Shown: piece after piece, positions 429 through 60,507 of the stretch
How the letters are laid out: every line of letters starts with the position of its first letter
Position numbering within the stretch: the stretch's first letter is position 1
NCBI GenBank assembly: GCA_018675685.1
Contig: JABGXP010000014.1
Location: 81,288 to 145,287 of the forward strand
DNA: 64,000 nucleotides
Reading direction: 5' to 3'
Origin: a bacterium
Lineage (GTDB): Bacteria > Patescibacteriota > Minisyncoccia > Moranbacterales > DUUL01
Program-made: the position numbers and the translations under genes
Notes under the pieces: generated by a model
The model's database searches: none
What the model saw: the letters and a program-made list of their open reading frames with translations, nothing else
What the model was told of the DNA's origin: nothing

Positions 429-728
429 TTGTGTAGTGTTATGAAACAAGAAGATGTTACATTGATTAGTTGCAGTGTTTGTGGTGAGAGATATCGCACA
501 GGCAGTGCAAAAATCGTAGGGAGTAGGAACAATTCTTTGATTGTTCATATTCATTGTGGAAGTTGTTATTCTTCTACGCTTACGATTATTTCCAAAAACT
601 CAACCGGTGAAAACACCATGACAATGGGAATGTTAACAGATTTAAGTTACAACGAAGCTGTGGAGTCAATGAATATGAGAGCAATCGATGCTGATGAAGT
701 GTTGGATATTATTGAGGAAACTCGATAG
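429..728 (+). CDS. small hypothetical protein with a zinc-ribbon-like arrangement (CSVCG ... HCGSC)
   Basis: ORF with two CxxC-like pairs and no recognisable family. The start may be the internal MKQEDV at nt 441. Confidence 0.3.
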   Translation: MCSVMKQEDVTLISCSVCGERYRTGSAKIVGSRNNSLIVHIHCGSCYSSTLTIISKNSTGENTMTMGMLTDLSYNEAVESMNMRAIDADEVLDIIEETR

Positions 729-16945: not shown

Positions 16946-17224
16946 ATGGTAAAAGTTACAAAACAAAAAATAGGGGAAAGTGAAATAGTTTGTCATGACT
17001 GCGGCAAGACAATGGCGGAAGGTGACATGTGCGTGCCTTATGATGTGGCAAAAAAAACTTTCTACAAGTGCGATAAATGCTTTGTAAAAGATGATTCATT
17101 AAGAAATTATCAAGAGACAGAGGTTTATTCTAGGATCGTTGGTTATATTAGACCAGTGAAGCAATGGAATGTTGGGAAGACAGCAGAATACGCTGATAGA
17201 AAAGAGTATTGTGTAGAAGCTTAA
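16946..17224 (+). CDS. stand-alone class III RNR glycyl-radical domain protein (zinc ribbon plus RIVGY motif)
   Basis: CHDCG ... CDKC zinc ribbon followed by YSRIVGYIRPVKQWNVGKTAEYADRKEY, which matches the NrdD C-terminal glycyl-radical signature (RVCGYLG .. WN.GK .. E .. R). It is in the same frame as nrdD but separated by three in-frame stop codons within 51 nt. Confidence 0.7.
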   Translation: MVKVTKQKIGESEIVCHDCGKTMAEGDMCVPYDVAKKTFYKCDKCFVKDDSLRNYQETEVYSRIVGYIRPVKQWNVGKTAEYADRKEYCVEA

Positions 17225-22843: not shown

Positions 22844-23179
22844 ATGACACAAATAAAACAAACAAAAAGCACCCATTTTAGAAAAATAGCAGCAAAAACA
22901 AAACAGGAGAAGACCCAAATGGGGAAAGAATTAGGTGCTGCAATTGAAAATAAGGCTGAAAAATACCCTTCAATTGGAGAGTGGAAGAGTTCGATCTTCA
23001 CTGTCAAGGAGAAATGTATTGGCTGTGAAATGTGCGTAAAGCATTGTCCGGAGGCTGCTATAACAACAAAGGAAATCGGGGATAAAAAAAGAGCAGAAAT
23101 TGACCAATCTTTCTGTAAGGGTTGCGGGATATGCGAGAATGTTTGTCCAGTTGAAGCGATTGAGGTGAAGAAAATGTAA
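22844..23179 (+). CDS. porD: pyruvate:ferredoxin oxidoreductase delta subunit (2x[4Fe-4S] ferredoxin)
   Basis: Two CxxCxxCxxxCP motifs: CIGCEMCVKHCP and CKGCGICENVCP. Confidence 0.85.
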   Translation: MTQIKQTKSTHFRKIAAKTKQEKTQMGKELGAAIENKAEKYPSIGEWKSSIFTVKEKCIGCEMCVKHCPEAAITTKEIGDKKRAEIDQSFCKGCGICENVCPVEAIEVKKM

Positions 23180-33105: not shown

Positions 33106-35049
33106 ATGGGAAAAATCCTAGGAATCGATTTAGGAACAACCAACTCTGCGATGGCTATCGTGGAAGGCGGAACTCCTGAGATCGTAGAAAACAAAGAAGG
33201 GAACAGAACAACTCCTTCAGTAGTCGCGATTAATAAAGGTGGTGAAAGATTAGTAGGTCTTTTAGCAAAAAGGCAAGCTGTGACAAATCATGAGAATACA
33301 ATCTATTCAGCAAAACGTTTGATTGGGCGAAAGTTTTCAGATGCAGAGGTAAAGGAAACTGCTACAAAACTTCCTTTTAAAATTACTTCAGGTAAAAATG
33401 AAGCCGTTAATATCACAATGAACGGAAAAGCATACCGACCAGCTGAAATTTCAGCAATGGTTTTGCAGAAATTAAAAGCTGATGCAGAGGAAAAACTCGG
33501 AGAAAAAATCGAAGAAGCTGTGATTACAGTTCCTGCATATTTTGACGATGCTCAAAGAAAAGCGACAAAAGATGCTGGAGAAATTGCTGGGCTCAAGGTG
33601 ATGCGAATCATCAATGAACCAACAGCTGCAGCACTTGCGTATGGTTTTAACAAGAAAAAAGACGAAAAAATTGCTGTCTATGATCTTGGAGGAGGAACTT
33701 TCGATATTTCAATTTTGGAAGTTGCTGAAGACACTGTGGAAGTTAAAGCTACAAATGGTGATACTTATCTTGGTGGAGATGATTTTGATGAAAAAATCAT
33801 AACTTGGATTCTAGATGAATTCAAGAAAGCAGAAGGAATTGATCTTTCAAAAGATCCACTTGCTCTTCAGAGAATCAAAGAATCTGCTGAGAAAGCGAAA
33901 ATTGAACTTTCAACAGCACAAGAAAGTGAAATCAACCAACCATTTATCACTTCAGGTGATGATGGACCAAAACATCTTGTGATGAAAATTTCAAGAGCTA
34001 AATTGGAAGAACTAGTAGGAGATTTAGTAGACAAAACACTTGAACCAGTGAAAAAGGCATTGGCTGACGCAAAATTCAAAGCAGCTGATATCAATGAAAT
34101 TGTGATGGTTGGAGGAATGACAAGAATGCCATTGGTTTTGAAGAGAGTAGAAGAATTCTTTGGAAAGAAACCATCGACCAGTGTTAATCCAGATGAAGTT
34201 GTGGCAATGGGTGCTGCAATTCAGGGTGGAGTTCTTCAAGGCGATGTCAAAGATGTATTGTTACTTGATGTGACACCACTTACTCTTGGAATTGAAACAA
34301 TGGGTGGAGTTTTAACACCACTTATTGAACGAAATACTACAATTCCAACAACAAAGTCACAAATATTTTCAACTGCAGCTGATAATCAACCTGGTGTTGA
34401 AATTCATGTTTTGCAGGGTGAACGAAAAATGGCTGCAGACAGCAAACCACTTGGAAGATTTATGTTGGATGGAATTCCACCAGCACCAAGAGGAGTGCCA
34501 CAAGTTGAAGTTTCTTTCGACATCGATGCAAATGGAATCTTGAATGTAAAAGCAATTGACAAAGCAACAAATAAAGAGCAATCAATTCGTATTGAAGCTT
34601 CAAGCGGAATGTCTGAGGAAGAGATTGAGAAAATGAAAAAGGATGCTGAACTGCATGCTGAAGAAGACAAAAAGAAAGCTGAGGAAATTGAAATAAAGAA
34701 CACAGCTGATGCAATCGTTCATTCGACCGAAAAAACTTTTAAAGAGGTTGGAGACAAGATTTCTGATGACAAGAAAAAACCAGTTGAAGAAAAGCTTGAA
34801 GCCTTGAAAAAAATAAAAGATGGTGATGACTTTGAGGCAATCAAAAAAGCTTCTGAAGAGCTTTCAACTGAGGCTCAGAAAATTGGCGAAGAGATGTATA
34901 AAGCAGCTCAAGAAGCAGAAGCAGCTAAAGCAGCACCTGAAGGAGAAGAGAAAAAAGAAGAGGGTGATGTAAAAGAGGCTGAAGTTGAAGAAAAAGAAGA
35001 AGAAAAGAAGGAAGAGAAGAAAGACGAAAAAGAAGAAGAAAAGAAATAG
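33106..35049 (+). CDS. dnaK: molecular chaperone DnaK (Hsp70)
   Basis: [27 protein letters not shown] and [11 protein letters not shown]. Substrate-binding domain and an acidic EEKKEE C-terminal tail. Confidence 0.95.
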
Positions 35050-35747: not shown

Positions 35748-36450
35748 ATGATGGGGGGCAATCAAGAACGTGTTTGGAAACCAGTTTTTGAAATCGACAC
35801 AAGTAAAGAACCTTTTTTAACTCAAAGGATGCCAAAACCAGGAGTCTTGCATGAACTTTTTCGTTTGATGTTAAACCTAAGAGTAGTTCATTACGTTACT
35901 GATGATTTTTTGGAAGAATACAGTCCATCATTGGCAATGTTGGCAAAGGTTGAAGTTAGCAGGGGTTTCAATGTCTTTGTTAAAAAAAATTACCAGCAAG
36001 AAAAGAGTTGCAGAAACACTCAGACTTTTGCGGAAAGGAGTTATTGCTAAAGCAGTCTTTGAAGCCGATGGGTACTTCCAGGATGTCTCGTTCTGCTTTG
36101 GGTCATTTTGTTTTCACGCTGGACCTGATGATATGGATGGACGGGAAAAGGTGCTTGCAAACGACATCAAAATCTTTGACGGAGTGGAGATTGTCTTTGA
36201 TTACGAGCGTTGGAAGAACGGATCCCATTTGTCATGGGGCGTTGAACTTTCCTTTGGGTGGGCAAACACTCTTGAACTTGGGTGTAAAGGCTCAATACGA
36301 GCAGATTCAAGGGAAGATACCATCAATGCATTGTTGGCGTATCTGAAAGAGGGGAAGAAGCACATTAAACCTCGCTTTCAAAAGGATCGCAAAAAACTGA
36401 TTGAGGCATTGAATCGGTTCGGGGATTCATATTGGTATTTCAAAATTTGA
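35748..36450 (+). pseudogene. GC-richer gene of unknown function interrupted by a +1/-1 frameshift at an A8 homopolymer (35982-35989)
   Basis: Frame 0 ORF 35748..36050 and frame +1 ORF 35902..36450 both read as protein-like and overlap across the A8 run. Removing one A fuses them into a protein of about 234 aa. Local GC is visibly higher than the surroundings. Confidence 0.45.
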
Positions 36451-51646: not shown

Positions 51647-52606
51647 TCAAGTTGTGCTTTTTCTTCCTAGCATTTCAAGGAGAGAGGGGAGTGCAAAGTG
51701 AACGACAATTCCAATTCCAATAGCTGAAAGTGGCACCCAGTAGAGCGCGTGACAATTTTCAAGGAGATACCAAGTTGCAACGAGAGCCGTTACTCCTGCA
51801 GTATCAAACTTCCAACCATAATCGCTGAGTTCTACATGTTTCCAGGTATTAGCAATAAGAGCTATTGCCAAAACGATAAGCGCTAGTACCCACGGCAACT
51901 TTTTTGTATTTTCGCAAGTAGTTGATGTCCCCTTAACATCTCCAGCATTTTCTGATCCTGCTCCTTCCTCGGAAATTATTGGTGTGTTTTCGCCGAGAAC
52001 TTCAGCCTCTTCTTCTGGTAAGTTCTCTGTTAGACCAAGCACGCGTCCTTGGTCAGTAAGAATATCTTCCTCGGTTTCATCTTCTGTTGCTACGCGTGAT
52101 TCTATTTCAAATTCAATATCAAATTTTGCTTCTAAGTTTTGATATTCATTACCAGCATCTTCATCGAATTTTATTTTAATGCGATATTCTTTGCCTTTTG
52201 TAGCGCTCAGACGGTCCATGTATAACTCTTCTTCATCTGCCTTTTTCAAGTCATAGCGGTCCCCTGGTCCGCCAATCCGATAACTCCCATTCTCAACCCT
52301 GATAACATATAGTTTCAATTCTTCTGCTAATTTCTTGTCACCCTTAAGGTCAATAGTAAAAAATAAATTAATATCATCTGTTTCGCTGTCATTTTCCACT
52401 CTAATAGTTTTCTTTTCTTGCCAACCAGGCAGGATGTTAGTGAAATCGAAAATAGCACTTTCATTTAAATTTGTTCCCACTGGATATTCAACATCGATTT
52501 TGTCATCTGCCCAAGCAATGTTTGTGAAAAAAACTCCACTAAAAAGCAAGCTTATTGTAAGTAAGAAGAATTTTTTCAGTCCAAATTTTATACCATCTTT
52601 TTTCAT
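51647..52606 (-). CDS. secreted TasA/camelysin-like-fold protein with a C-terminal double-TM anchor; last gene of the sipW operon
   Basis: Signal peptide (FTNIAWA/DD). A beta-rich domain with a TasA-like NILPGWQEKKTIRVEN motif. An acidic linker and two C-terminal TM helices. Its start overlaps the stop of the upstream gene by 4 nt. Confidence 0.4.
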   Translation of the reverse strand: MKKDGIKFGLKKFFLLTISLLFSGVFFTNIAWADDKIDVEYPVGTNLNESAIFDFTNILPGWQEKKTIRVENDSETDDINLFFTIDLKGDKKLAEELKLYVIRVENGSYRIGGPGDRYDLKKADEEELYMDRLSATKGKEYRIKIKFDEDAGNEYQNLEAKFDIEFEIESRVATEDETEEDILTDQGRVLGLTENLPEEEAEVLGENTPIISEEGAGSENAGDVKGTSTTCENTKKLPWVLALIVLAIALIANTWKHVELSDYGWKFDTAGVTALVATWYLLENCHALYWVPLSAIGIGIVVHFALPSLLEMLGRKSTT

Positions 52607-54948
52607 GCCAATATGTTATTGATAATTAACATTACTATTTCTCCCAGATCATTCTCTTCCTCTTTTTTTTCTTCTTCCTTTAACTCTTCTTTTTCTTCTG
52701 ACTCTTCTTCTTTAATCGCTTCTAGTTCTACTTGTTCCTCTTTGGGTTCCTCAGATGTTTCGTTTTCTGCTTCCTCTGCTTTCTCGTCTTTTAATTCAGG
52801 GGTTTCATTGTTAGCTGATTCTTCTTCTACACTTTCCAATTTCTCTTCTTCTGGGGCTACCTCCTCTGCAATTTCTGGTATCGAGTCTTCTTCTTTGGAG
52901 TTTTCATTATTTAAATCAGAATCCTTGTCGTCAGTTTGGTTTTCTTCACTCTCAATAGAAGACTCTTCGCCCGAATCTTCTTCAGGTAGTTCAACTTGCT
53001 CAGTATCGGTTTGCTTTATGTTTTCTTCTTGGGCCTGATCAGTTTCTCCTTTAGAAGTATCCTCCCCTTTAATGGCATCGAGGAAAACTTCATCGCCATC
53101 TTCCTTTTTTTCATCTTCGTCTTCTTCTTGCGATTCCAAAGCAATTTCTGCTAGGATTTCGCGATAAACATCTTTGGGCATTTCATCATCATTTTCATCA
53201 TCTAAAAGACCCAAGTATTCCAAGAAAACTCCCTTGCAAAATGGATGTTCTTCCTCTCTGTCGAAATCTCTTTTGTCGAAACATTCTTCCAGAACTATTG
53301 CTTGATAATAATCTTTTTCATCGCTAGAGAGTTTGTTTTCTTTGCCTAAGCGAGGATTTGGGTCAACAAAAGGACCAACACCATCTGGGATTCGTTGAAA
53401 CGCTTTATTTTCAAAGAAATCGCTTGGCTTTTGATAATCATAGTGATCATTTTCAATTTCAACACTGCCATAACGAGCAATCAGATATAATTCACCGTTG
53501 TTGTTATTATCAAAGAATTCAGCTGGATTAAATTGTCCGTCTGCATACACAACTAGATCATCGCCAGCTGGAACAATGGTCTCACCACTATCTGAAGGGT
53601 TGTCATCATTGTCGCCGTTGGAAGTCGAAATAATAATTTCATCTCCGTCTTTATTGGCAATGATCCAACCAGCCACATCCCAGTCCTTGTCATCATTATT
53701 CCAAAGTTCAATCACTTCACCATTTGGCATTGGCGCTACGTCACTTCCAGATGGATTTGCCACAAACTCATTTAAAACTATTGGCAAGAGGTTTTGTCCA
53801 CCAGGCGTGCCATAGTTATTGATTTCATCTTCCCAAAAGTCAGTATCATTAGCAGCTGGGTGATTTGTCGTGAACCAATTTTTAGCATCCGTGCCATCTC
53901 CTGGGAGAGGCATTCTTTGCATTGAACGATAATCCGAACCATTTTCTCCTGCTGGCCAAGCTGAATCTTTCCAGGCGACGTCAACTGTTGTACCAGCTTT
54001 GTTTGCAAGTAAAAGTCCCTCGCCGTCATTGTGGAGACTCACATTTGATTTATGGGTGATTCCTTTATCAGAGTCTAGATTGCTGGAGAGGCCAATAGCT
54101 GTTTCATTCCATTTTTTTCTCAAGATCAAGAAATATCCATTAGCTTTGATGCTATATCCATGTGGAATTTCTAGGTGTGCCATTGCCCCTGCGCCATGGC
54201 CAAGACCATGAACATTCCAATTTGAAAGGTCAATCTCTTTGTCTGTCATGTTGCGAAGTTCAATCCATTCGTCAGAACTTCCTTCTTCTGATCCCATCCA
54301 CATAATCTCGTTGATAACAACAGCTTGGCTAGCTGACCACTGGTCGGAAGTAACACGGTTACTCGTAGTTTCAATATCAGAAAAGCCATCAGCTCCATGG
54401 GTCGAACCTGTTTGCCAAGCTTCAAATTTAAAATCAAAATCACAAACTTTATCAGCCAGGGAAGGATTGCCATCAGTTAATTTAACGGTAAAGTTCCAAG
54501 TTTCTTTTGAAATATTTTGTGTACTCGAAAAAAGATAGTCAGCTAATTTTTGATAGGTATTTGTTTGATCGTCTTTGATTTCCAATTTTTCACAAAGATC
54601 TAAGTCGCCAGAAAGATTTGTAGTTGAAACTTTGTAATTAAAATCCAGTATCCCGAGTTTTGAAAGCGAAACAGATTTAGAAGTTTCTGTGGAGGGTGAA
54701 ACTTTGGGAGAGAAACTGTCGTCGGAAGGAATGGAAAAGTCTAGAGTGGAAGCGCCCAGAGTGTTATTTGCGCCCTCTTCTTTGTCTGAAAAACTAGCAT
54801 TAGTGCCCCCAGGAAAATTCAGTGAAAAAGAAAAAACTGATATCAAAAGACAAATTCCCACTTTTTTGAGCGAGCTTAGGATTCTTCTTGTGATAACTGA
54901 TTTATATCTCCTTTTCTTCTTTGACATCGTCTTTTTTAGTATTATCAT
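52603..54948 (-). CDS. large secreted protein with a SipW-cognate signal peptide, two lamin-tail (LTD) domains and a highly acidic repetitive C-terminal region
   Basis: N-terminus GGTNASFSDKEEGANNTLGASTLDFSI (SipW-cognate class). LTD signatures VVINEIMWMGSEEGSSDEWIELRN ... DLSNW and IVLNEFVANPSG ... EVIELWN ... DVAGW. The C-terminal roughly 300 aa are D/E/K low-complexity. Confidence 0.65.
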   Translation of the reverse strand: MIILKKTMSKKKRRYKSVITRRILSSLKKVGICLLISVFSFSLNFPGGTNASFSDKEEGANNTLGASTLDFSIPSDDSFSPKVSPSTETSKSVSLSKLGILDFNYKVSTTNLSGDLDLCEKLEIKDDQTNTYQKLADYLFSSTQNISKETWNFTVKLTDGNPSLADKVCDFDFKFEAWQTGSTHGADGFSDIETTSNRVTSDQWSASQAVVINEIMWMGSEEGSSDEWIELRNMTDKEIDLSNWNVHGLGHGAGAMAHLEIPHGYSIKANGYFLILRKKWNETAIGLSSNLDSDKGITHKSNVSLHNDGEGLLLANKAGTTVDVAWKDSAWPAGENGSDYRSMQRMPLPGDGTDAKNWFTTNHPAANDTDFWEDEINNYGTPGGQNLLPIVLNEFVANPSGSDVAPMPNGEVIELWNNDDKDWDVAGWIIANKDGDEIIISTSNGDNDDNPSDSGETIVPAGDDLVVYADGQFNPAEFFDNNNNGELYLIARYGSVEIENDHYDYQKPSDFFENKAFQRIPDGVGPFVDPNPRLGKENKLSSDEKDYYQAIVLEECFDKRDFDREEEHPFCKGVFLEYLGLLDDENDDEMPKDVYREILAEIALESQEEDEDEKKEDGDEVFLDAIKGEDTSKGETDQAQEENIKQTDTEQVELPEEDSGEESSIESEENQTDDKDSDLNNENSKEEDSIPEIAEEVAPEEEKLESVEEESANNETPELKDEKAEEAENETSEEPKEEQVELEAIKEEESEEKEELKEEEKKEEENDLGEIVMLIINNILA

Positions 54949-55495
54949 TCTCTAATTCATCTGCTTTGCGTTTTTTTGTTCTTCTTCGATAATCAAGTTT
55001 TTTCAATATTTCTTTCTTGATGGTCAAAATTTCATCATAGATAATAATAACTGCGGGAACAATGATGATTAGAACAAAACCAATCGGTTTTTGCGCAGCA
55101 TTCACGGCATATCCTAAAAATGGAACAGAGAAGAGCACTTTTCCAATAACTTCATTTTTTGAGACTTGTTTGTGGTCTTTCGCATTATTAGCATCTCCTT
55201 TAGTGATGTATTTTTCGATATCGTCATTTTTTTCTATGGCTGTGATTCTATGTGTGGTCGGTGTTTTCATTTTGGAGGACTCTCCAAAAGTGATCACATC
55301 ACCAACTTGATAATTTTCAGCTGGTTTTGTGGCTACTATGCTTCCTGTGCGAATTTTTGGTTCCATTGAGCCAGAAAGCACGATAAATGATTTATAACCA
55401 CCTTTTATGGGAATAGCAGACAGAACTAAAAAAACGGCAATAATTGCAATTGCAAGGATAAATAGGTAATAGAAAGTTTTGAAGATTTTTTTCAT
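54902..55495 (-). CDS. sipW: signal peptidase I, SipW-type (archaeal/eukaryotic-like S26B)
   Basis: N-terminal TM followed by VLSGSMEPKIRTGSIV (catalytic Ser in SGSMEP) and the conserved His region (KGDANNAKDH). C-terminal TM and basic tail. Confidence 0.8.
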   Translation of the reverse strand: MKKIFKTFYYLFILAIAIIAVFLVLSAIPIKGGYKSFIVLSGSMEPKIRTGSIVATKPAENYQVGDVITFGESSKMKTPTTHRITAIEKNDDIEKYITKGDANNAKDHKQVSKNEVIGKVLFSVPFLGYAVNAAQKPIGFVLIIIVPAVIIIYDEILTIKKEILKKLDYRRRTKKRKADELENDNTKKDDVKEEKEI

Positions 55496-55590
55496 TAGAG
55501 GTGTGTTTCTTGGTAGTTGCTTGTTTAAAAACAGGAATAGTTAACTTATTGACTGCCCGAGAGTTCAGGCAGTCTAAAGTCAACTAACTA

Positions 55591-56643
55591 TTAGTAAGAA
55601 CTAACTATTAGTAAGTCAGTATCTTCATACCAAATCAAACCAGTCTCCCAGAGCCATTTGTCCATTTGAGTCCATTGAATAGCTCCATCATTCCATGCAG
55701 TCTTTGGGAGCAACCAAACCTTAACATCTTTCATGTCTTTTCCAAGCTCCATATCTCCGGTGAAATTGATATCACCACTTCCGTTTGATATGCTTTCTCC
55801 TAGGTATGTATCAACATTAGTACCACCATCATATCCAGCAGCTAATACATACGTTGTGTTAGGCAAAGCAACTTTTCCGTCAAATTCAAAATCAAAAGTT
55901 GGATTTTTAACTTCATAGGTTAGTGTGCCTTTGAAATCATCATCTTGAAGCACGTTCCAAGGTCCAGAAGTGTCTTTATTTTCTAGCCAAGCCTCCCCAT
56001 GAAGTTGTTCAGCATAGAGCTCAATGTTGAAAGTCATTTGATCACCTTGATATTCGTTGCCAGCGTTTTCATTCATGTGATAGCTTTGTCTAACTTGCAT
56101 GTAGCCATTAGCAGGAATCATTCCTAAGAACACTTTTTTAGCACCAGCATAGACATCATCAAGAGTTTTACCTTCTGAATCAAGGTAGAGGGTTTGTTCC
56201 CAGATAGGAGTATTACTTGAATCGTATACTTCAACGTATAGATCATAAATAATAACACTAGAGAGATCATTATTGTCAGTTGCACCACCCCAAGAACAAG
56301 CATCATTACTCCAATTACCACCTTGGCCATCACATTCAGGCTCTGATACTACACCTGTTATTTCTACAATTTCGGTGATATCCTTCCAAACATTAACAGG
56401 GTTTGCACTCTCTCCCTCATTTTCAATTTCAAAGTTGATATAATCGATATAATCTGGTTTCATGTCATCCATGGCGAAGCTTTCACTCCAAGGATTCATG
56501 TTATTTACTGAAATATCAATTGTTCCAGCAGTGAAAGTGTTGCCGACTGATTTTTCTTCATCTGAAAAATAGGCTACCGTACCACCGATTGCTACTGCTG
56601 CAACGGCTGTGATAACCATTAAACTTTTTAAAATCTTTTTCAT
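55591..56643 (-). CDS. TasA/camelysin-family protein with a SipW-cognate signal peptide
   Basis: N-terminus MKKILKSLMVITAVAAVAIGGTVAYFSDEEKSVGNTFTAGTIDIS is the textbook SipW-cognate class. The mature domain is beta-rich with a TasA-like core. Confidence 0.75.
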   Translation of the reverse strand: MKKILKSLMVITAVAAVAIGGTVAYFSDEEKSVGNTFTAGTIDISVNNMNPWSESFAMDDMKPDYIDYINFEIENEGESANPVNVWKDITEIVEITGVVSEPECDGQGGNWSNDACSWGGATDNNDLSSVIIYDLYVEVYDSSNTPIWEQTLYLDSEGKTLDDVYAGAKKVFLGMIPANGYMQVRQSYHMNENAGNEYQGDQMTFNIELYAEQLHGEAWLENKDTSGPWNVLQDDDFKGTLTYEVKNPTFDFEFDGKVALPNTTYVLAAGYDGGTNVDTYLGESISNGSGDINFTGDMELGKDMKDVKVWLLPKTAWNDGAIQWTQMDKWLWETGLIWYEDTDLLIVSSY

Positions 56644-57225
56644 TTTTTCTTGTTAAATTTTTATACTAAATTTCTCCCTCTAGCAATTTAGTTAGTTTGG
56701 TTTAAGCTCTAATAGTTTAAACCAGAGAACCGTGCACAAATGTTTTTGGGTAGCTTATTCCTTCCTAGTGTTAATATTTAGTGTTTTATCTTAAACTTTG
56801 TTCATTTAACTAGATTTAAGGTAACAAAAAAATCAGAAACTTTTTGCTCCGTTGTTTTTTAGGGTTTTTTGATTTTGTTTTTCTTTCTTTTCAGGAATGC
56901 TCTTTCCATATCTGTTATTTAATCATTTAACAAAAATAATAAACAGACTCTTTCACAAACTAGCAACCAGGACCCCTCTTTTAATAACGAGTATAGCAAG
57001 TCATTTTCAAACGTCAAATGGGATTAAACTTATAACCCTGTTTTTAGGGCAAAAAACAGGGGGATTCCTTTTTCCGAAAAAATGTTAAATCTAATTGACA
57101 TTTCCTGGTATTTATGTTCAAATTAATGAGCAGAAAATTATCTGGTAACAGTTTTTTTACAAAAAGCACGAAAAAGCAGTTAAACAAAAAACCTAGACTA
57201 GGCTATTTCCAAAGGAGAAAGGTTC

Positions 57226-57741
57226 ATGAAAAATAGAAGAGAAGAAAGAAGATTGTTGAGAGAAGAAGGTCTCCCAATTGAAAGAATGAGAATCATCGAC
57301 ACAGCAGAGACGTTGGATTTGCAAATCAAAGAATTTCTGGGTTGTCATGTATCCGTGAGTGGTTGTGGTTCTTCGAAAGAGCAGACACTGGATCTCTCAT
57401 TGGTGAGAGAGTTTGTCGGAGCAATTCCGGTTGCCAACGTTTTGTTCGAAGCACCTCGCTTTGCATGGACCAATGAGGAAGATGATATTCCTGTCAGGGC
57501 GATTGTTCTGGAAGTTTTGGCTGGTAGCAAAGGAGATGACCTTCTGAATGGCATTTTCGATGATGTTGGCATGATCTTTGAGGATATTCGTTTTTTGAAC
57601 TTTCTCTCAGTTATCCAAGCGACGTTGTCGCCAGTGTTTCCAGTTTGTGAGCTGGAGGTTTTGCTGAAAATGATTAATGATTTCAAAAAAAGTCCGGTGA
57701 TCCAAAAATCAGACATGGGGGATGAAAATATCAATGAATAG
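57226..57741 (+). CDS. hypothetical protein in a GC-richer island
   Basis: A 171-aa ORF with an AAGGAGAAAGG RBS. GC is clearly above the local background. No motif recognised. Confidence 0.3.
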   Translation: MKNRREERRLLREEGLPIERMRIIDTAETLDLQIKEFLGCHVSVSGCGSSKEQTLDLSLVREFVGAIPVANVLFEAPRFAWTNEEDDIPVRAIVLEVLAGSKGDDLLNGIFDDVGMIFEDIRFLNFLSVIQATLSPVFPVCELEVLLKMINDFKKSPVIQKSDMGDENINE

Positions 57742-57971
57742 CTCCTTTTGTCGAATAGTTCGTTCTATTGAATGTTTGCGAGGTGTCTAGTGGAAAATTC
57801 CGCTGGACACCTTTTTTTGAATAATTTTTGTCGATTTTCATTGACAAAAGTAACAAAATCATGTATGGTTATTGGAATGATCCAAATCTCTTTTGAGTCA
57901 AGGTCATTTGCTAGTTCTTCGTCAATTTGGAATTTTAGAAAAAAACTTTTTAATTTTTTTGGAGGTAAGTC

Positions 57972-58367
57972 TTGAAAGAAGAGCATGGAAGGATAAATGT
58001 TTTAATCGTGGATAGCGAGGAAGATGATGCTATAATTCTCGATATCAGAAAGTTGATCATCAATTTACATCAAAAACAAGGGAGCAAAAAAGAGCTAGCT
58101 ATTAGCTTAATTGATAGCCAAGTGAATCTTTTTGCACATCATTTAGAGTTTGATTTTCAAATTGTTATTCTGTTAAACAACAATGAAAAAAGCGATTTGA
58201 TTTTTCAATATCTAAATGGGTTTTTTTCTGGCAAGGCAAAGTTTATTGTCATTGGCCCTGAAATTGAAACTGCGGCTAAGCACGCGAAGTTTGAAGGTGC
58301 TTGGGTTGTTTCAAACACCTTTAATGAAGTGATCCCACAGTTCGAAACATTGATGGGAGAGAAGTAG
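57972..58367 (+). CDS. response-regulator receiver (REC)-like single-domain protein, possibly atypical
   Basis: INVLIVDSEEDDAII at the beta1/acidic pocket position, LIDSQ (candidate phospho-acceptor region) and FIVIGPE ... K late in the domain. A single-domain CheY-like fold is inferred. Confidence 0.35.
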   Translation: MKEEHGRINVLIVDSEEDDAIILDIRKLIINLHQKQGSKKELAISLIDSQVNLFAHHLEFDFQIVILLNNNEKSDLIFQYLNGFFSGKAKFIVIGPEIETAAKHAKFEGAWVVSNTFNEVIPQFETLMGEK

Positions 58368-58426
58368 TTTAAACGGTCAATCAGCAAAGTAAACTGCAAA
58401 GGTTTACTGAAGATGGGGAGGATGCT

Positions 58427-58603
58427 ATGGACAGATATCTTGACCCAGAAATACGACAAAGGCGCAGAAACAAACTAGTAAGTGGCAAGTGCACTGTTTG
58501 TTCAAATGACGCTGCAATTCCTTGGAAGCAACATCAATATTGTTACGACTGCTGGGTAATTGCAGAGGTTTATTTCATGAAAGAACTGCGGAATGAAAAA
58601 TAA
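58427..58603 (+). CDS. 58-aa zinc-ribbon mini-protein (CTVC ... CYDC), not in the ORF track
   Basis: GGGGAGGA RBS 5-12 nt upstream of the ATG. Sequence MDRYLDPEIRQRRRNKLVSGKCTVCSNDAAIPWKQHQYCYDCWVIAEVYFMKELRNEK. Confidence 0.3.
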   Translation: MDRYLDPEIRQRRRNKLVSGKCTVCSNDAAIPWKQHQYCYDCWVIAEVYFMKELRNEK

Positions 58604-58653
58604 GGAGAGCGAAAGATTAATTTAACCTATCAATCAGCAAAGGTGGTAAGAAG

Positions 58654-59619
58654 ATGGAGAAAAGAAAAAAAGGAGATAAAAAACCAGAGAATGTAAGAAT
58701 CATTTTTGTTTCTGCTGTCTGCGGAAAAGAACCAGAGCTCATGACCAGTTTTCTTGAAGAGTTTGATTCTTTCGCGAAGAAGCAGGACAAAAAAACTTTT
58801 GTCTTGATTTTCTGCGGAAAAGCAAGCGACCCAAGCAAGCTTTTGCGAAAGGCTGACATTCTGGTAACTGATCCCGTGATCACTTGGGGTGGAAGAAAGA
58901 CATTCCTTCCTCAGCTAGGTTCTGCCAACGATGAGCGCGAGAATGGAAAACGCAGAATCATTATCGTTCTTCCAAGAAAGAAGGATGAAAGAAATAAATT
59001 CTTTGCTGACCCCCGGTGTTTTGCAAAGACATTGATGCCAAATGTGGAGCATCCTCGGAAAGTTGAAAAAATCTCGCATATTCCTTTGAATGGCAAGACT
59101 CTGGAAAAAATCGAAGATGAAGTCATTTTCGAACTACCAGAACATTGTTCAGCCCCGAGAGTGATGATCGCACTTTCTAATTCTTTTGAAATGATTGAAG
59201 CGAAAAAACTGAAGGAGACAATTGAGGCACAATTTGCCCTTGAGGTGATGGTGGTTCCTTGGAAAAGCTTCCGAGCTTCAATGGCCGCCGAAGCGGATGT
59301 TTTGATTACTAGCACTGTTCAACAGCTCGATAGACTCCCAACACCTGCAAGAGTTCCCACTAATAGGCACAATGGTAGAAACAACAAGTTTGTCGAATCA
59401 AAAGTTCACACCTATCAAAACTTGGCGCATGTTGACATGTCCAAGAAGGCTAATCCAGCCCTGCAGGTTGTTCTTTTGGGAAGGGAAGTGACAGCGTTCA
59501 TTGTTCGTTATGCGGACATCCTATCCGGCTTCTTAGAGTTTCCGCCAACAAAGGCTTCTTTGTCAGCAGCTTTACAAAGAGCAGCTTTGAAAAGCGAAAA
59601 ATCAGTTCTTATCAATTAG
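58654..59619 (+). CDS. hypothetical protein with an N-terminal Rossmann-like alpha/beta segment, in the GC-richer island
   Basis: A 321-aa ORF with an AGGTGG RBS. Alternating beta-strand/helix pattern (VRIIFVSAV ... FVLIFCGKASD ... ADILVTDP). No family recognised. Confidence 0.35.
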   Translation: MEKRKKGDKKPENVRIIFVSAVCGKEPELMTSFLEEFDSFAKKQDKKTFVLIFCGKASDPSKLLRKADILVTDPVITWGGRKTFLPQLGSANDERENGKRRIIIVLPRKKDERNKFFADPRCFAKTLMPNVEHPRKVEKISHIPLNGKTLEKIEDEVIFELPEHCSAPRVMIALSNSFEMIEAKKLKETIEAQFALEVMVVPWKSFRASMAAEADVLITSTVQQLDRLPTPARVPTNRHNGRNNKFVESKVHTYQNLAHVDMSKKANPALQVVLLGREVTAFIVRYADILSGFLEFPPTKASLSAALQRAALKSEKSVLIN

Positions 59620-59898
59620 GAAAATATCAAGTACATCAGGCTTAATTCTAAAGCAAGTTCTAAAACTAAAGTTTCAAAAAATGATTGAGGCATGCAGGAA
59701 ATTTTTCCTTCGCATGCCTCTTTTTGTCAATTAAAGTTGACGTTTTAGCTAGAATATGCTAAAAAGAAATATTATACTTTTCAAAAAGAGATTACTTTTA
59801 TTTTCAATGAATATTTCGATTTGCTAGTCGCCGGGAAGCAAATTGATTTTGTAAGAAGATTTGTTAGAATGGTTTTGCATTACAAGTAATATGACTTT

Positions 59899-60507
59899 AT
59901 GGAGCTTAAAGAGTATTTAAAAGTTTTGAAGAAATACAAAACAACCTTTGTTGTCATCTGGGTTGGAGCGATTGCTTTTGGATTGATTGCAGCGTCTCTT
60001 GTTCCACAGAGATACAAAACGACTTTTTCAATTGATATCACAAGAGATACGCAGGAAGAAGGAACTCAGGAATATGACTTTGATCAATTCTATCGTTTAG
60101 AAGCAGACGATCGATTCGGCAGGACAATTGTAGAATGGTTTAGTGATGGTGCAATTGTAAACAACATTCACGCTGTCGCAAGAAGCGTGGAAGAGAATTT
60201 TGAAAATGAAGAACTCGAAACGAAATTTAAAGCAAAAAAGCTCGCAAATAGCTATTTGAGGGTTAGCTTCTTGGTTTCAGAGAAAAAAGAAGTAAAACCA
60301 CTTTTTCTGGGAGTGAAAAAAGTTCTAAATGAGAAAACCAAGGAGTTTAATGGCGGTTTCAATAAACAAAGCAGCTTTAAGCTCATTTTTAATGGACCAA
60401 CTATTGCAAATGCTACAATTCCACTTACCCCACTACTTATCAGTTTGATTGGCAGTGGTTTTTTCTTGGCAGCATTCGGGATTATGTTTAGAAAGTATCT
60501 AGAATAA
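59899..60507 (+). CDS. Wzz/Cap-type polysaccharide chain-length determinant protein (short form)
   Basis: N-terminal LKEYLKVLKKYKTTFVVIWVGAIAFGLIAASL (Wzz N-terminal TM motif), a periplasmic segment and a C-terminal TM (LISLIGSGFFLAAFGIMF). Confidence 0.5.
   Translation: MELKEYLKVLKKYKTTFVVIWVGAIAFGLIAASLVPQRYKTTFSIDITRDTQEEGTQEYDFDQFYRLEADDRFGRTIVEWFSDGAIVNNIHAVARSVEENFENEELETKFKAKKLANSYLRVSFLVSEKKEVKPLFLGVKKVLNEKTKEFNGGFNKQSSFKLIFNGPTIANATIPLTPLLISLIGSGFFLAAFGIMFRKYLE

What the first reader, a model, noticed from the sequence alone, without database searches (positions are those of the whole stretch)
57226..59619. GC-richer four-gene island of unknown function (hypothetical, REC-like, zinc-ribbon mini-protein, Rossmann-like protein) with a shared upstream motif
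This stretch is visibly more GC-rich than the flanking AT-rich genome. It lies between the sipW/tasA operon and the wzz/GT4 polysaccharide genes, and is preceded by a 580-bp non-coding region. It encodes a 171-aa unknown, an atypical single-domain REC-like protein, an unannotated 58-aa CxxC ... CxxC protein and a 321-aa unknown. The 13-mer TCAATCAGCAAAG occurs at the same offset (about 25-35 nt) upstream of two start codons (58378-58390 and 58630-58642), each followed by ...GAAGATGG. This suggests co-regulation or a duplicated leader. The island could be a horizontally acquired signalling or defence module; I cannot assign it to any known system from sequence alone.
Basis: seen in the sequence. 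Interest (0 to 1): 0.55.

Follow-up and report, generated by a model that had tools for sequence, protein, structure and literature searches.

The report
Orphan receiver-fold genes beside polysaccharide cluster
The slightly GC-richer "island" is not foreign DNA or a defence system: it is a vertically inherited, very fast-evolving set of small regulator-like genes with a CheY/receiver fold but no phosphorylation site, next to a cell-envelope polysaccharide cluster in an uncultured Moranbacteria-type (CPR) bacterium, plus one species-specific zinc-ribbon mini-gene that sits between duplicated copies of a gene junction.

Summary
The ORFs, the 582-bp upstream gap and the exact 13-mer pair are real. 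The GC excess is modest: 39.8% against 36.5%, carried by the 171-aa and 321-aa genes only.

The horizontal-transfer and defence reading fails.
- The 131-aa and 321-aa genes have orthologues at the same position in three other Moranbacteria-type genomes, directly upstream of Wzz-like/GT4/GT4/DUF4012. In a fifth lineage the 321-aa homologue sits next to a ManC-type gene.
- In all four genomes with enough flanking DNA, the pair has the same promoter and the same terminator.
- The orthologues are also GC/GC3-rich relative to their own genomes.
- There are no PADLOC, PHROG, phage, plasmid or viral matches.

These genes are 19-34% identical between genomes whose flanking genes are 62-85% identical. 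That explains why they look like orphans.

The 13-mer is the core of a duplicated gene junction of about 65 nt that brackets the 58-aa CxxC...CxxC ORF, which is unique to this species.

Most likely function (inferred): phosphorylation-independent adaptor or regulator proteins tied to envelope polysaccharide assembly.

The parts
57095..57123 (+). Promoter-like site of the 171-aa gene: TTGACA, 17 nt, TCAAAT, with TG two bases upstream of the -10 hexamer
   Evidence: The same arrangement is conserved at the equivalent place in L004, where it reads TTGACA-17-TGAAAT. Function is inferred, not measured.
57226..57741 (+). f171: 171-aa acidic cytoplasmic protein of unknown fold. It is the most lineage-restricted of the conserved genes.
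   Evidence: ORF. No Pfam, NCBIfam, PADLOC or PHROG hit. The 5.8-billion-protein search finds only itself. It is a weak reciprocal match to the N-terminal part of a syntenic 346-aa ORF in L004: 39% over 64 aa, with E 0.002-0.005 in a small database. GC 41.7%, GC3 41.9%.
57780..57813 (+). Intrinsic-terminator-like hairpin (15 pairs) followed by a T-run, after f171
   Evidence: -25.4 kcal/mol for the 50-nt window.
57841..57869 (+). Promoter-like site of the f131-w58-f321 unit: (CAT)TGACAAAA, 17 nt, TATGGT
   Evidence: Found. CATTGACAAA followed by TAT(G/T)(G/A)T is conserved upstream of the f131 orthologues in L004, L006 and L010.
57972..58367 (+). f131: 131-aa single-domain protein with a receiver-like (beta-alpha)5 sequence pattern. 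Asn69 sits where the phospho-accepting Asp would be.
   Evidence: Orthologues are L004 (141 aa, 36%, E 5e-14), L006 (151 aa, 27%) and L010 (142 aa, by synteny and alignment). Invariant residues are V10, L11, V13, D14, N69, F78, V93, G95, F107 and F117. The global hhalign alignment to a receiver profile is in register and scores 11.5 against 3.0 +/- 1.8 for column shuffles. No Pfam or PDB sequence hit. No structure was predicted for it.
58344..58419 (+). Junction copy 1: the end of f131, the 13-mer TCAATCAGCAAAG (58377-58389), a 6-bp hairpin GTAAAC/GTTTAC, and GAAGATGG
   Evidence: It aligns to 58595-58660 with 51 of 62 aligned bases identical.
58427..58603 (+). w58: 58-aa CxxC-13-CxxC (zinc-ribbon-like) mini-protein behind a GGAGG SD site with 5-nt spacing. 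It is found only in this species.
   Evidence: GenBank carries it as a hypothetical protein. It has no counterpart in L004, L006 or L010, where the two flanking genes abut or overlap. No viral or PHROG relative. The Cys pattern occurs in only 5 of 360 six-frame ORFs of the window.
58595..58660 (+). Junction copy 2: the 13-mer (58630-58642) running into the AAGGTGG SD site and the ATG of f321
58654..59619 (+). f321: 321-aa protein modelled as two receiver-fold domains. The N-domain spans about residues 12-132 and has four strands. The C-domain spans about 165-320, is (beta-alpha)5, and carries a disordered insert at 224-253.
59687..59720 (+). Intrinsic-terminator-like GC-rich hairpin plus T-run, ending the f131-f321 unit
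   Evidence: -21.4 kcal/mol. An equivalent hairpin plus T-run follows the f321 orthologue in L004, L006 and L010.
59737..59765 (+). Conserved promoter-like site of the Wzz-like/GT4 operon: TTGACG, 17 nt, TAAAAA with an upstream TG. This is context, not part of the island.
   Evidence: It is nearly identical in L004, L006 and L010.
59899..60507 (+). Wzz-like 202-aa membrane protein, the first gene of the conserved polysaccharide cluster (context)
   Evidence: Pfam Wzz E 4.9e-5, 24.0 bits, just under the 25.5-bit cutoff. It is 66-69% identical in L004, L006 and L010.

Best explanation
The region is a vertically inherited, lineage-specific and very fast-evolving pair of transcription units in a marine Moranbacteria-type (CPR) bacterium.

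Unit 1 is f171 alone, with its own promoter and terminator.

Unit 2 is f131-w58-f321, with its own conserved sigma-70-type promoter and terminator. It always lies immediately upstream of the separately transcribed Wzz-like/GT4/GT4/DUF4012 envelope-polysaccharide cluster.

f321 is an output-less protein made of two CheY-like receiver-fold domains. f131 is probably a single receiver-fold domain. None of the three domains has a complete phospho-acceptor site:
- The f321 N-domain keeps an invariant Asp at the end of beta3 (D73) but has Ser-Ala in place of the metal-binding acidic pair.
- The f321 C-domain has lost all catalytic residues and keeps only the structural Pro after beta5.
- f131 has Asn in place of the phospho-Asp.

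I therefore infer that they work as phosphorylation-independent pseudo-receiver adaptors or regulators acting through protein-protein contacts, as PleD's second receiver domain, TadZ/CpaE N-domains and DrdR REC1 do. The most likely target is the neighbouring polysaccharide assembly machinery. This target is inferred from gene neighbourhood only.

The higher GC3 and odd codon usage fit weakly expressed, weakly codon-selected genes, not foreign origin.

The 58-aa zinc-ribbon ORF is a recent, species-specific addition. It lies between two copies of the f131/f321 junction, so it has a diverged copy of f321's leader region in front of it. That duplication is what produced the 'shared 13-mer'.
For: SYNTENY
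- f321 homologues P0016, P0018 and P0019 each lie directly upstream of the 202-aa Wzz-like gene, two GT4 genes and DUF4012. Each is directly preceded by a 141-151-aa f131 homologue.
- The fifth homologue, P0017, is followed by a ManC-type NTP-transferase/mannose-6-P isomerase, another sugar-nucleotide gene.

TRANSCRIPTION UNITS
- The promoter before f131 and the terminator after f321 are conserved in four species, as is the next promoter for the Wzz-like operon.

EVOLUTIONARY RATE
- f131 is 19-34% identical, f321 24-33% and f171 31%.
- Against that, Wzz-like is 66-69%, the GT4s 76-85%, DUF4012 62-65% and the spermine-synthase-like protein 69-74%.
- The reading frames are intact in five lineages and carry invariant residues.

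COMPOSITION
- GC and GC3 of the orthologues are also above their own locus means in L004, L006 and L010.
- Genes with the most typical codon usage, including the ATP synthase beta subunit, have low GC3.

FOLD
- Foldseek's best hit is PleD, a tandem-receiver protein.
- f131 aligns in register with receivers.

ACTIVE-SITE STATUS
- Read from alignments A1 and A3 and the secondary-structure elements of the model.

NOT MOBILE OR DEFENCE
-.

JUNCTION DUPLICATION AND UNIQUENESS OF w58
-.

LITERATURE
- Output-less tandem receivers with a truncated (beta/alpha)4 pseudo-receiver act by direct protein binding (DrdR, PMC13507683).
- Pseudo-receiver concepts come from PMC12632262.
- DUF4012 is associated with CPS/EPS clusters and enriched in CPR (PMC6744442).
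Against: - No experiment or expression data exists. The link to polysaccharide synthesis rests only on adjacency, and the units are transcribed separately (terminator plus promoter between them). Synteny could therefore be passive among fairly close relatives.
- The receiver fold of f321 rests on one AF2 model from a 5-sequence alignment: mean pLDDT 64, pTM 0.43, and domain orientation unreliable.
- No sequence method detects a receiver. There are no Pfam hits at E <= 10. PDB profile searches show nothing. Local hhalign to a receiver profile built from remembered sequences gives P 0.007-0.03 only.
- For the f321 N-domain, the reversed-sequence control scored as high as the real sequence.
- The invariant D68/D73 in the f321 N-domain leaves room for some phosphorylation or ligand chemistry.
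- f171 has no assigned fold or role.
- The reason for elevated GC3 is an inference.
Confidence: 0.5

Rival explanations
1. These are receiver-fold adaptor proteins, vertically inherited, but functionally unrelated to the polysaccharide cluster. They might instead serve the divergently oriented TasA/SipW/LTD fibre operon or some other cellular process. Their adjacency to the Wzz-like gene would then be passive synteny.
For: - The f131-f321 unit is insulated from the Wzz-like operon by a conserved terminator and a separate promoter.
- In the window and in L004 the block lies between the tasA operon and the Wzz-like gene.
- The tasA, sipW and LTD genes evolve as fast as the block, at 31-40% identity.
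Against: - In L006 and L010 the left flank is different, while the pair stays attached to the Wzz-like cluster.
- In L008 the neighbour is again a sugar-nucleotide gene.
Confidence: 0.25
2. These are true, phosphorylatable response-regulator-type proteins. D73 of the f321 N-domain would be the acceptor, and the partner kinase would be encoded elsewhere in the genome.
For: - D68 and D73 are invariant in the pattern aDxlvxD, which resembles the receiver beta3 motif, and a Gly follows at D+6.
- The fold matches true receivers as well as pseudo-receivers.
Against: - The metal-binding acidic pair after beta1 is replaced by an invariant Ser followed by Ala or Gly.
- The Thr/Ser position is Pro107. 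The modelled N-domain has no beta5 Lys.
- The C-domain and f131 lack the Asp altogether.
- A receiver profile finds no canonical receiver in the window or the related loci.
- Histidine kinases were not searched for systematically.
Confidence: 0.12
3. f321 is a degenerate GT-B (GT4) glycosyltransferase. It would be a remnant of the roughly 365-aa GT4 gene that occupies the slot directly upstream of the Wzz-like gene in more distant Moranbacteria.
For: - A GT4 of 365-432 aa sits in that slot in eight distant loci: Pfam confirms it in L015, L016, L018, L020, L022 and L025, and the equivalent ORFs of L023 and L024 align with these at 60-73% identity.
- f321 is of similar length and has two alpha/beta domains.
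Against: - Profile-profile comparison of A1 with the GT4 alignment A4 gives probability 0.1%.
- There is no Glycos_transf_1 or Glyco_transf_4 Pfam signal in any member.
Confidence: 0.06
4. One reading: a horizontally acquired signalling or defence island.
For: - Modestly elevated GC and atypical codon usage of f171 and f321.
- All four proteins are orphans in family libraries and in the 5.8-billion-protein search.
Against: - Orthologues lie at the same locus, with conserved promoters and terminators, in three other species.
- The same GC/GC3 bias is present in the orthologues.
- There is no tRNA in the window. No integrase or transposase turned up among the neighbouring ORFs scanned with Pfam; not every ORF was scanned.
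- There are no direct repeats flanking the block.
- There are no PADLOC, PHROG, phage, plasmid or IMG/VR hits.
- Orphan status is explained by the very high substitution rate.
Confidence: 0.04

Closest known systems
PleD N-terminal REC-REC' tandem (Caulobacter; PDB 1w25, 2v0n, 9g85)
   Different: PleD has a canonical phospho-accepting first domain and a GGDEF output domain. f321 has no output domain and no complete active site in either half. Sequence identity is 10-17%, and no HMM relates them.
DrdR of Xanthomonas campestris, an output-less tandem-receiver response regulator (PMC13507683)
   Same: A stand-alone REC-REC protein. The N-terminal domain is a truncated four-strand (beta/alpha)4 pseudo-receiver, followed by a (beta/alpha)5 domain. 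It acts by binding target proteins directly. The f321 model has the same 4-strand plus 5-strand layout.
   Different: DrdR's C-terminal domain is a canonical receiver with the acidic pocket and phospho-Asp. f321's C-domain lacks them. DrdR targets pilus ATPases. No sequence relationship was tested or is expected.
Stand-alone or N-terminal pseudo-receivers: TadZ/CpaE atypical receiver domains (PDB 4lda, 4dn6, 4dad), FleQ-type domains, and the minor pseudo-receiver Pfam families listed by Bourret et al. 2025 (PMC12632262)
   Same: (beta-alpha)5 fold without the conserved catalytic residues, and regulation without Asp phosphorylation. TadZ, CpaE and FleQ domains appear among the structural hits.
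   Different: None of those Pfam families, nor PF00072, matches f131 or f321 at E <= 10. The known examples are usually fused to an ATPase or a DNA-binding output domain.
Single-domain CheY-like response regulators
   Same: f131 has the length, the alternating beta/alpha pattern and an in-register alignment: VLIVD with beta1, IVILLN with beta3, IVIG with beta4 and VVSNTF with beta5.
   Different: Asn replaces the phospho-Asp, Ser replaces the second metal-binding Asp, Gly replaces Thr, and there is no Lys-Pro. No HMM hit and no structure prediction was made.
Regulator gene pairs at the head of capsule loci, such as UpxY/UpxZ of Bacteroides (recalled from my own knowledge, not checked here)
   Same: Small, locus-associated, rapidly diverging regulator genes placed at the 5' end of a surface-polysaccharide cluster.
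   Different: The fold is unrelated (NusG-like antiterminators). Those genes are co-transcribed with the locus, whereas here a terminator and a separate promoter intervene.

Membership tests
Receiver domain (Response_reg, PF00072) | Recognised by the family HMM | tested here: not met
   No PF00072 hit for any of the 5 f321-family or 4 f131-family members at E <= 10. A receiver HMM built from eight remembered sequences does not find them either.
Receiver domain (Response_reg, PF00072) | (beta-alpha)5 CheY-like fold | tested here: met
Receiver domain (Response_reg, PF00072) | Acidic pair (DD) after beta1 that binds Mg2+ | tested here: not met
   The f321 N-domain has invariant S20 followed by Ala or Gly. 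The f321 C-domain has non-acidic residues (SNS, STK and similar). f131 has D14 then Ser, Phe or Thr.
Receiver domain (Response_reg, PF00072) | Phospho-accepting Asp at the end of beta3 | tested here: inconclusive
   It is present and invariant in the f321 N-domain (D73). It is absent in the f321 C-domain (Thr, Ser, Leu, Asn or Gly). In f131 it is replaced by invariant N69. Positions were assigned from the model's strands and from alignment, not from a superposition.
Receiver domain (Response_reg, PF00072) | Thr/Ser at the end of beta4 and Lys at the end of beta5 | tested here: not met
   The f321 N-domain has P107 after beta4 and no beta5. The f321 C-domain has Gly or Asp after beta4 and no Lys before the invariant P297. 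f131 has G95 and no Lys-Pro.
Bacterial pseudo-receiver as defined by Bourret et al. 2025 (PMC12632262) | Computationally identified as a receiver, or in one of the minor pseudo-receiver Pfam families, but lacking key catalytic residues | tested here: inconclusive
   The lack of catalytic residues is met. Identification as a receiver is met only by predicted structure, not by any HMM. It works like a pseudo-receiver, but formal family membership is not shown.
Horizontally acquired genomic island | Present here but absent from the same site in related genomes; mobility genes, a tRNA or flanking repeats; foreign composition | tested here: not met
   Orthologues are at the same site in L004, L006 and L010. 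There is no tRNA in the window. No integrase or transposase appeared among the neighbouring ORFs scanned with Pfam. No repeats flank the block. The composition is deviant, but the deviation is shared by the orthologues.
Known anti-phage defence systems (PADLOC-DB 2.0) | At least one protein matching a defence-system HMM | tested here: not met
   Zero hits at E <= 1 for all four proteins. There are no phage, plasmid or IMG/VR relatives.
GT4 / GT-B glycosyltransferase | Glycos_transf_1 / Glyco_transf_4 HMM match, and GT-B two-Rossmann fold | tested here: not met
   No Pfam hit. hhalign of A1 against the alignment of positionally equivalent GT4s gives probability 0.1%. Structural neighbours include no glycosyltransferase and are led by receivers.
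Zinc-ribbon mini-protein (w58) | Two CxxC knuckles at ribbon-like spacing; zinc binding; homologues | tested here: inconclusive
   CTVC-13-CYDC is present. There is no homologue in relatives, viral contigs, Pfam, NCBIfam or PHROGs. The fold and metal binding were not tested.

The most novel reading that the evidence does not exclude
f131 and f321 would represent a previously unrecognised, sequence-orphan branch of the CheY-like superfamily. It is confined to a marine/sediment Moranbacteria subclade and consists only of pseudo-receiver domains: one single-domain protein and one protein with two tandem domains (three in P0016). On this reading the branch acts as a kinase-independent switch or scaffold for CPR envelope-polysaccharide assembly, and its extreme divergence reflects co-evolution with a variable surface or host-interaction apparatus. 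In addition, w58 would be a very young gene (one species only) that was installed in the operon between two copies of the f131/f321 gene junction, which gave it a copy of the downstream gene's leader region. That would be a traceable case of gene birth or capture.
Probability: 0.25. Interest if true: 0.5.

Novelty: new variant of a known kind. Interest (0 to 1): 0.3.

Why it matters
CPR/Patescibacteria have small genomes, few recognisable regulators and a large share of orphan genes.

This case shows that one such orphan "island" is really a set of receiver-fold proteins that have diverged beyond what sequence methods detect. They are stably linked to an envelope-polysaccharide cluster, which is the kind of surface structure thought to mediate episymbiont-host contact.

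It also gives a concrete caution. Raised GC with odd codon usage plus orphan status can mimic horizontal transfer when genes are simply fast-evolving and weakly expressed.

The duplicated junction around the 58-aa zinc-ribbon ORF is a small, datable example of how a new gene can be slotted into an operon.

None of this changes a major paradigm. It is a useful annotation and a modest lead for pseudo-receiver biology.

Tried and rejected
FAMILY AND HOMOLOGY SEARCHES
- Pfam, NCBIfam, PADLOC and PHROGs on the four proteins gave nothing usable.
- The word-indexed search of 5.8 billion proteins returned only self-hits for f321, f171 and f131. That used all three searches, so w58 was never searched there.
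- Profile searches of the PDB with A1 and A3, and single-sequence searches with three f131-family members, gave nothing significant. A weak look-alike to the ornithine carbamoyltransferase 'DxxxTDxWxSMG...HCLPR' motif (E 0.2) was not pursued. A weak BpsA_C hit (E 0.12) was dismissed because the DPxx motif is not conserved in the family.

STRUCTURE
- The single-sequence AF2 model of f321 was useless (pLDDT 33.6).
- The afdb50 fold library was unavailable.

RELATED LOCI
- The search for related loci with A1 failed because the alignment has no sufficiently conserved stretch. I anchored on the conserved Wzz-like neighbour (A2) instead.
- The metagenome scan added only one close locus (L028), and it is truncated just upstream of the Wzz-like gene.

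MICRODIVERSITY
- Other contigs of the same population differ at only 2 of about 15,300 positions, so no dN/dS estimate is possible.

HYPOTHESES TESTED AND DROPPED
- w58 as a partial tandem duplicate of the 3' third of f131 (both begin with SGK and end with EK*). This was rejected because, outside the junction, the DNA similarity has p = 0.07-0.25 and the protein similarity p = 0.27.
- f321 as a degenerate GT4. This was rejected.
- Homology between the f321 N-domain and C-domain, or between f131 and either f321 domain. hhalign shows no signal.
- The 13-mer as a conserved regulatory element. It is absent from the relatives' junctions, and hits with up to 2 mismatches in the window are at chance level.

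OTHER NEGATIVES
- Rfam and tRNA scans of the window were empty.

Full report
**1. THE OBSERVATION**

- 57226-57741, 171 aa, here f171.
- 57972-58367, 131 aa, here f131. It has a TTG start 5 nt after a GGAGGT Shine-Dalgarno (SD) site.
- 58427-58603, 58 aa, here w58. It has a CTVC-13-CYDC pattern and a GGAGG SD site 5 nt before the ATG.
- 58654-59619, 321 aa, here f321.

The 582-bp gap at 56644-57225 holds no convincing gene. The left neighbours on the - strand are a camelysin/TasA-like protein, a SipW-like peptidase and an LTD protein. The right neighbours are a Wzz-like protein (Pfam 24.0 bits against a 25.5-bit cutoff) and two GT4 glycosyltransferases.

The GC excess is real but modest.
- The block is 39.8% GC against 36.5% for the window. 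That is +2.4 SD and in the top 0.3% of equal-length windows, level with the ATP-synthase region.
- It is carried by f171 (41.7%) and f321 (42.5%). f131 is 35.1%.
- Per gene, f171 and f321 have GC3 z-scores of 2.6 and 2.4. f321 has the least typical synonymous codon usage of the 50 genes scored (z = -2.1).

The offsets differ: 37 nt and 11 nt to the respective ATG codons.

w58 is annotated in GenBank as a hypothetical protein, MBT3356085.1. It is not unannotated.

**2. WHAT ORGANISM, AND IS THE BLOCK FOREIGN?**

The same contig recurs almost identically in Saanich Inlet and other marine metagenomes, with 2 differences in about 15.3 kb. NCBI labels it only 'bacterium'.

All four proteins lack Pfam, NCBIfam, PADLOC and PHROG matches. 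The word-indexed search of 5.8 billion proteins returned only self-hits.

An exhaustive HMMER search of 1.84 billion cluster representatives did find four distant relatives of f321:
- P0016, 477 aa, E 4e-33.
- P0017, 315 aa, E 1e-13.
- P0018, 329 aa, E 1.6e-11.
- P0019, 347 aa, E 4.6e-4.

Their genomic contexts are decisive.
- In L004, L006 and L010 the homologue lies directly upstream of a 202-aa Wzz-like gene, two GT4 genes and a DUF4012 gene, as in the window. It is directly preceded by a 141-151-aa gene.
- That preceding gene is the orthologue of f131 (E 5e-14 and 1.7e-5; alignment A3).
- L004 also keeps the divergent tasA/sipW/LTD operon on the left. It carries a 346-aa ORF whose N-terminus is the weak reciprocal best match of f171.
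- In the short contig L008 the f321 homologue is followed by a ManC-type NTP-transferase/mannose-6-phosphate isomerase, again a sugar-nucleotide gene.

Scanning GTDB species genomes with the Wzz-like alignment names the lineage. The two closest loci, L011 and L012, are the same contigs as L006 and L010. They are 'Candidatus Moraniibacteriota', and more distant hits are Moranbacteria and other Patescibacteria.

In those distant genomes no f321 relative exists. The slot upstream of the Wzz-like gene holds a roughly 365-aa GT4.

So the block is vertically inherited within one Moranbacteria subclade.
- The orthologues of f321 and f131 are also GC- and GC3-richer than their own loci. For example, in L006 f321 is 41.1% against 35.0%. 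The compositional signal is therefore an old property of these genes.
- Genes with the most typical codon usage, including the ATP synthase beta subunit, have low GC3. High GC3 is best read as weak codon selection and low expression. This is an inference.
- There is no tRNA in the window. No integrase or transposase turned up among the ORFs scanned with Pfam, though not every ORF was scanned.
- There is no phage, plasmid or IMG/VR similarity.

**3. WHY THE PROTEINS LOOK LIKE ORPHANS**

Identities between the window and L004, L006 and L010:

| Gene | Identity |
|---|---|
| f131 | 19-34% |
| f321 | 24-33% |
| f171 (L004 only) | 31% |
| Wzz-like | 66-69% |
| GT4s | 76-85% |
| DUF4012 | 62-65% |
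| Spermine-synthase-like | 69-74% |
| tasA/sipW/LTD (L004 only) | 31-40% |

The block and the adjacent tasA/sipW/LTD genes form a fast-evolving zone. Intact reading frames in five lineages and invariant residues argue for real, selected proteins.

**4. TRANSCRIPTION ANATOMY**

| Feature | Window coordinates | Evidence |
|---|---|---|
| Promoter-like site before f171 (TTGACA-17-TCAAAT, upstream TG) | 57095-57123 | Conserved in L004 |
| 15-bp hairpin plus T-run after f171 | 57780-57813 | |
| Promoter-like site before f131 (CATTGACAAA-17-TATGGT) | 57841-57869 | Conserved upstream of all three orthologues |
| GC-rich hairpin plus T-run after f321 | 59687-59720 | Present in all four species |
| Promoter-like site for the Wzz-like operon (TTGACG-17-TAAAAA) | 59737-59765 | Nearly invariant in all four species |

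The 'island' is therefore two autonomous units, f171 and f131-w58-f321. They lie next to the polysaccharide operon but are not co-transcribed with it.

**5. THE 13-MER**

It is the core of a duplicated junction.
- 58365-58389 against 58618-58642 is 84% identical over 25 nt.
- 58391-58419 against 58632-58660 is 72% identical over 29 nt.
- With gaps, 58344-58419 aligns to 58595-58660 at 51 of 62 bases.
- This is the second-highest of 705 adjacent-block comparisons in the window. The only higher one is GAA low-complexity sequence.

Copy 1 starts at the end of f131. Copy 2 runs into the SD site (AAGGTGG) and the ATG of f321. Between them lies w58.

In L004, L006 and L010 the two flanking genes abut or overlap, and neither w58 nor the 13-mer is present. 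So w58 was inserted in this species only, together with a duplication of the f131/f321 junction.

I tested whether w58 is a diverged copy of the 3' end of f131. Outside the junction the similarity is not significant. The origin of the coding part of w58 remains unknown.

Three things favour a real zinc-ribbon mini-protein: the strong SD site, the 58-codon open frame, and a Cys pattern found in only 5 of 360 six-frame ORFs. This is unproven.

**6. WHAT THE PROTEINS ARE**

f321:
- The single-sequence AF2 model failed (pLDDT 33.6).
- With the five-sequence alignment A1 the model reaches mean pLDDT 64, with 70-85 in the two domains and pTM 0.43.
- The N-domain spans about residues 12-132 and has four strands. 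A disordered linker follows. The C-domain spans about 165-320, is (beta-alpha)5, and has a disordered insert at 224-253.
- The best Foldseek hit is PleD, whose two tandem receiver domains align over about 340 columns (E 2e-7). Single receivers follow at about 1e-4.
- No sequence method sees this. There are no Pfam hits at E <= 10, PDB profile searches are empty, and hhalign to a receiver profile built from eight remembered sequences gives only weak local matches.

Active-site positions in f321, read from A1 and the model's strands:
- The N-domain keeps invariant D68 and D73 ('aDilvtD', at the end of beta3) and G79.
- It has invariant S20 in place of the metal-binding acidic pair, and P107 at the Thr position.
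- The C-domain has no acidic pocket, no Asp, no Thr and no Lys. It keeps only the structural Pro (P297) after beta5.

f131:
- The global profile alignment to receivers is in register through all five strands. D14 aligns with the first Asp of the DD pair, S15 with the second, invariant N69 with the phospho-Asp, G95 with Thr, and F117 with CheY F111.
- It scores 11.5 against 3.0 +/- 1.8 for 100 column shuffles.
- I rate f131 as probably receiver-fold, not shown.

f171 has no assigned fold.

**7. MECHANISM**

What is shown:
- f131 and f321 are conserved, autonomously transcribed neighbours of an envelope-polysaccharide cluster.
- f321 is modelled as a tandem receiver fold.
- None of the three domains has a complete phosphorylation site.

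What is inferred:
- They act as phosphorylation-independent pseudo-receiver adaptors or regulators through protein-protein contacts. This is how PleD's second domain, the TadZ/CpaE N-domains and DrdR's four-strand REC1 work (PMC13507683; concepts in PMC12632262).
- The conserved S20/D68/D73/G79/P107/R113/F117 cluster of the N-domain is a candidate ligand- or partner-binding site.
- The likely target is the Wzz-like/GT4/DUF4012 machinery. DUF4012 is CPS/EPS-associated and enriched in CPR (PMC6744442).
- This link rests on adjacency in four species with different left flanks, plus a ManC neighbour in a fifth. It is my weakest step, at about 0.35. The structural and evolutionary description I put at about 0.8.

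**8. RIVALS**

- Same proteins but a different target, with passive synteny: 0.25.
- True phospho-accepting receivers with a distant kinase: 0.12.
- Degenerate GT4: 0.06. hhalign probability is 0.1% and there are no GT-B structural hits.
- Horizontally acquired or defence island: 0.04.

**9. NOVELTY AND VERDICT**

- The fold class and the idea of output-less pseudo-receiver proteins are known.
- The new element is a tiny family invisible to sequence methods: five 50%-identity clusters among 1.84 billion. All of its receiver-fold domains are degenerate, and it is fixed beside a CPR polysaccharide cluster.
- A one-species zinc-ribbon ORF installed by junction duplication is a second small novelty.
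- I class the finding as a new variant of a known kind. It is of moderate-to-low general interest (0.3) and useful mainly as annotation and as a caution about reading GC and orphan signals as horizontal transfer.

Noticed in passing
window 35902-36450 (+): This 182-aa ORF is the strongest compositional outlier in the window: GC 42.1%, GC3 43.7% (z = 3.0). It has no Pfam hit and the same kind of bias as f171 and f321. It may be another fast-evolving lineage-specific gene.
   Followed up: partly
window 55582-55615: A perfect tandem duplication of the 17-mer AACTAACTATTAGTAAG (2.0 copies, 100%) overlaps the 3' end and stop codon of the TasA-like gene, in the sipW-tasA spacer.
   Followed up: no
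window 58704-58729 and 58797-58822 (inside f321): A 26-nt internal direct repeat, 77% identical and ending in CTGCGGAAAAG. It encodes the ends of strands beta1 and beta2 of the N-domain (…SAVCGKE / …LIFCGKA). It could be chance or a trace of internal duplication.
   Followed up: no
window 57141-57168; L004 about 6130-6160: The block TCTGGTAACAGTTTTTTTACAAAAAGCAC, in the predicted 5' UTR of f171, is conserved in L004 (as TCTGATACCAGTTTTTTTACAAAGAAC). The rest of the roughly 600-bp divergent intergenic region is poorly conserved. This may be a regulatory site.
   Followed up: partly
L004 6212-6700 and 6722-7762; L006 3509-4006 and 2403-2957: L004 has an extra 162-aa gene between tasA and the f171 homologue, with homologues in L006. 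Its sequence also shows an alternating beta/alpha, receiver-like pattern. The L004 counterpart of f171 is 346 aa, so the window's f171 may be a truncated version.
   Followed up: partly
L015, L016, L018, L020, L022-L025, upstream of the Wzz-like match: In more distant Moranbacteria and other Patescibacteria, the gene directly upstream of the Wzz-like gene is a 365-432-aa GT4 that is well conserved among these loci (60-73% identity). The f131/f321 pair is not there.
   Followed up: yes
P0016 (L004 9119-10552): This f321 homologue has three domains. The N-domain type is duplicated in tandem (residues about 1-135 and 147-270) ahead of the C-domain, so the family has a modular architecture.
   Followed up: partly
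window 52603-56643 (-) compared with L004 1456-5613: The TasA-like, SipW-like and LTD proteins are only 31-40% identical between genomes whose polysaccharide genes are 62-85% identical. The TasA-like protein is 350 aa in the window and 207 aa in L004. The whole left flank is a fast-evolving zone.
   Followed up: partly
window 429-728 (+), 16946-17224 (+), 22844-23179 (+): Three other small ORFs (99, 92 and 111 aa) carry the CxxC...CxxC pattern. The third looks like a 4Fe-4S ferredoxin motif (CIGCEMC...CP). They fall below the 120-aa cut-off of my gene list.
   Followed up: no
window 34899-35046: GAA/GCA-rich low-complexity tandem repeats encode a Lys/Glu/Ala-rich C-terminal tail of the 647-aa protein at 33106-35049. 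This is the highest-scoring local repeat in the window.
   Followed up: no
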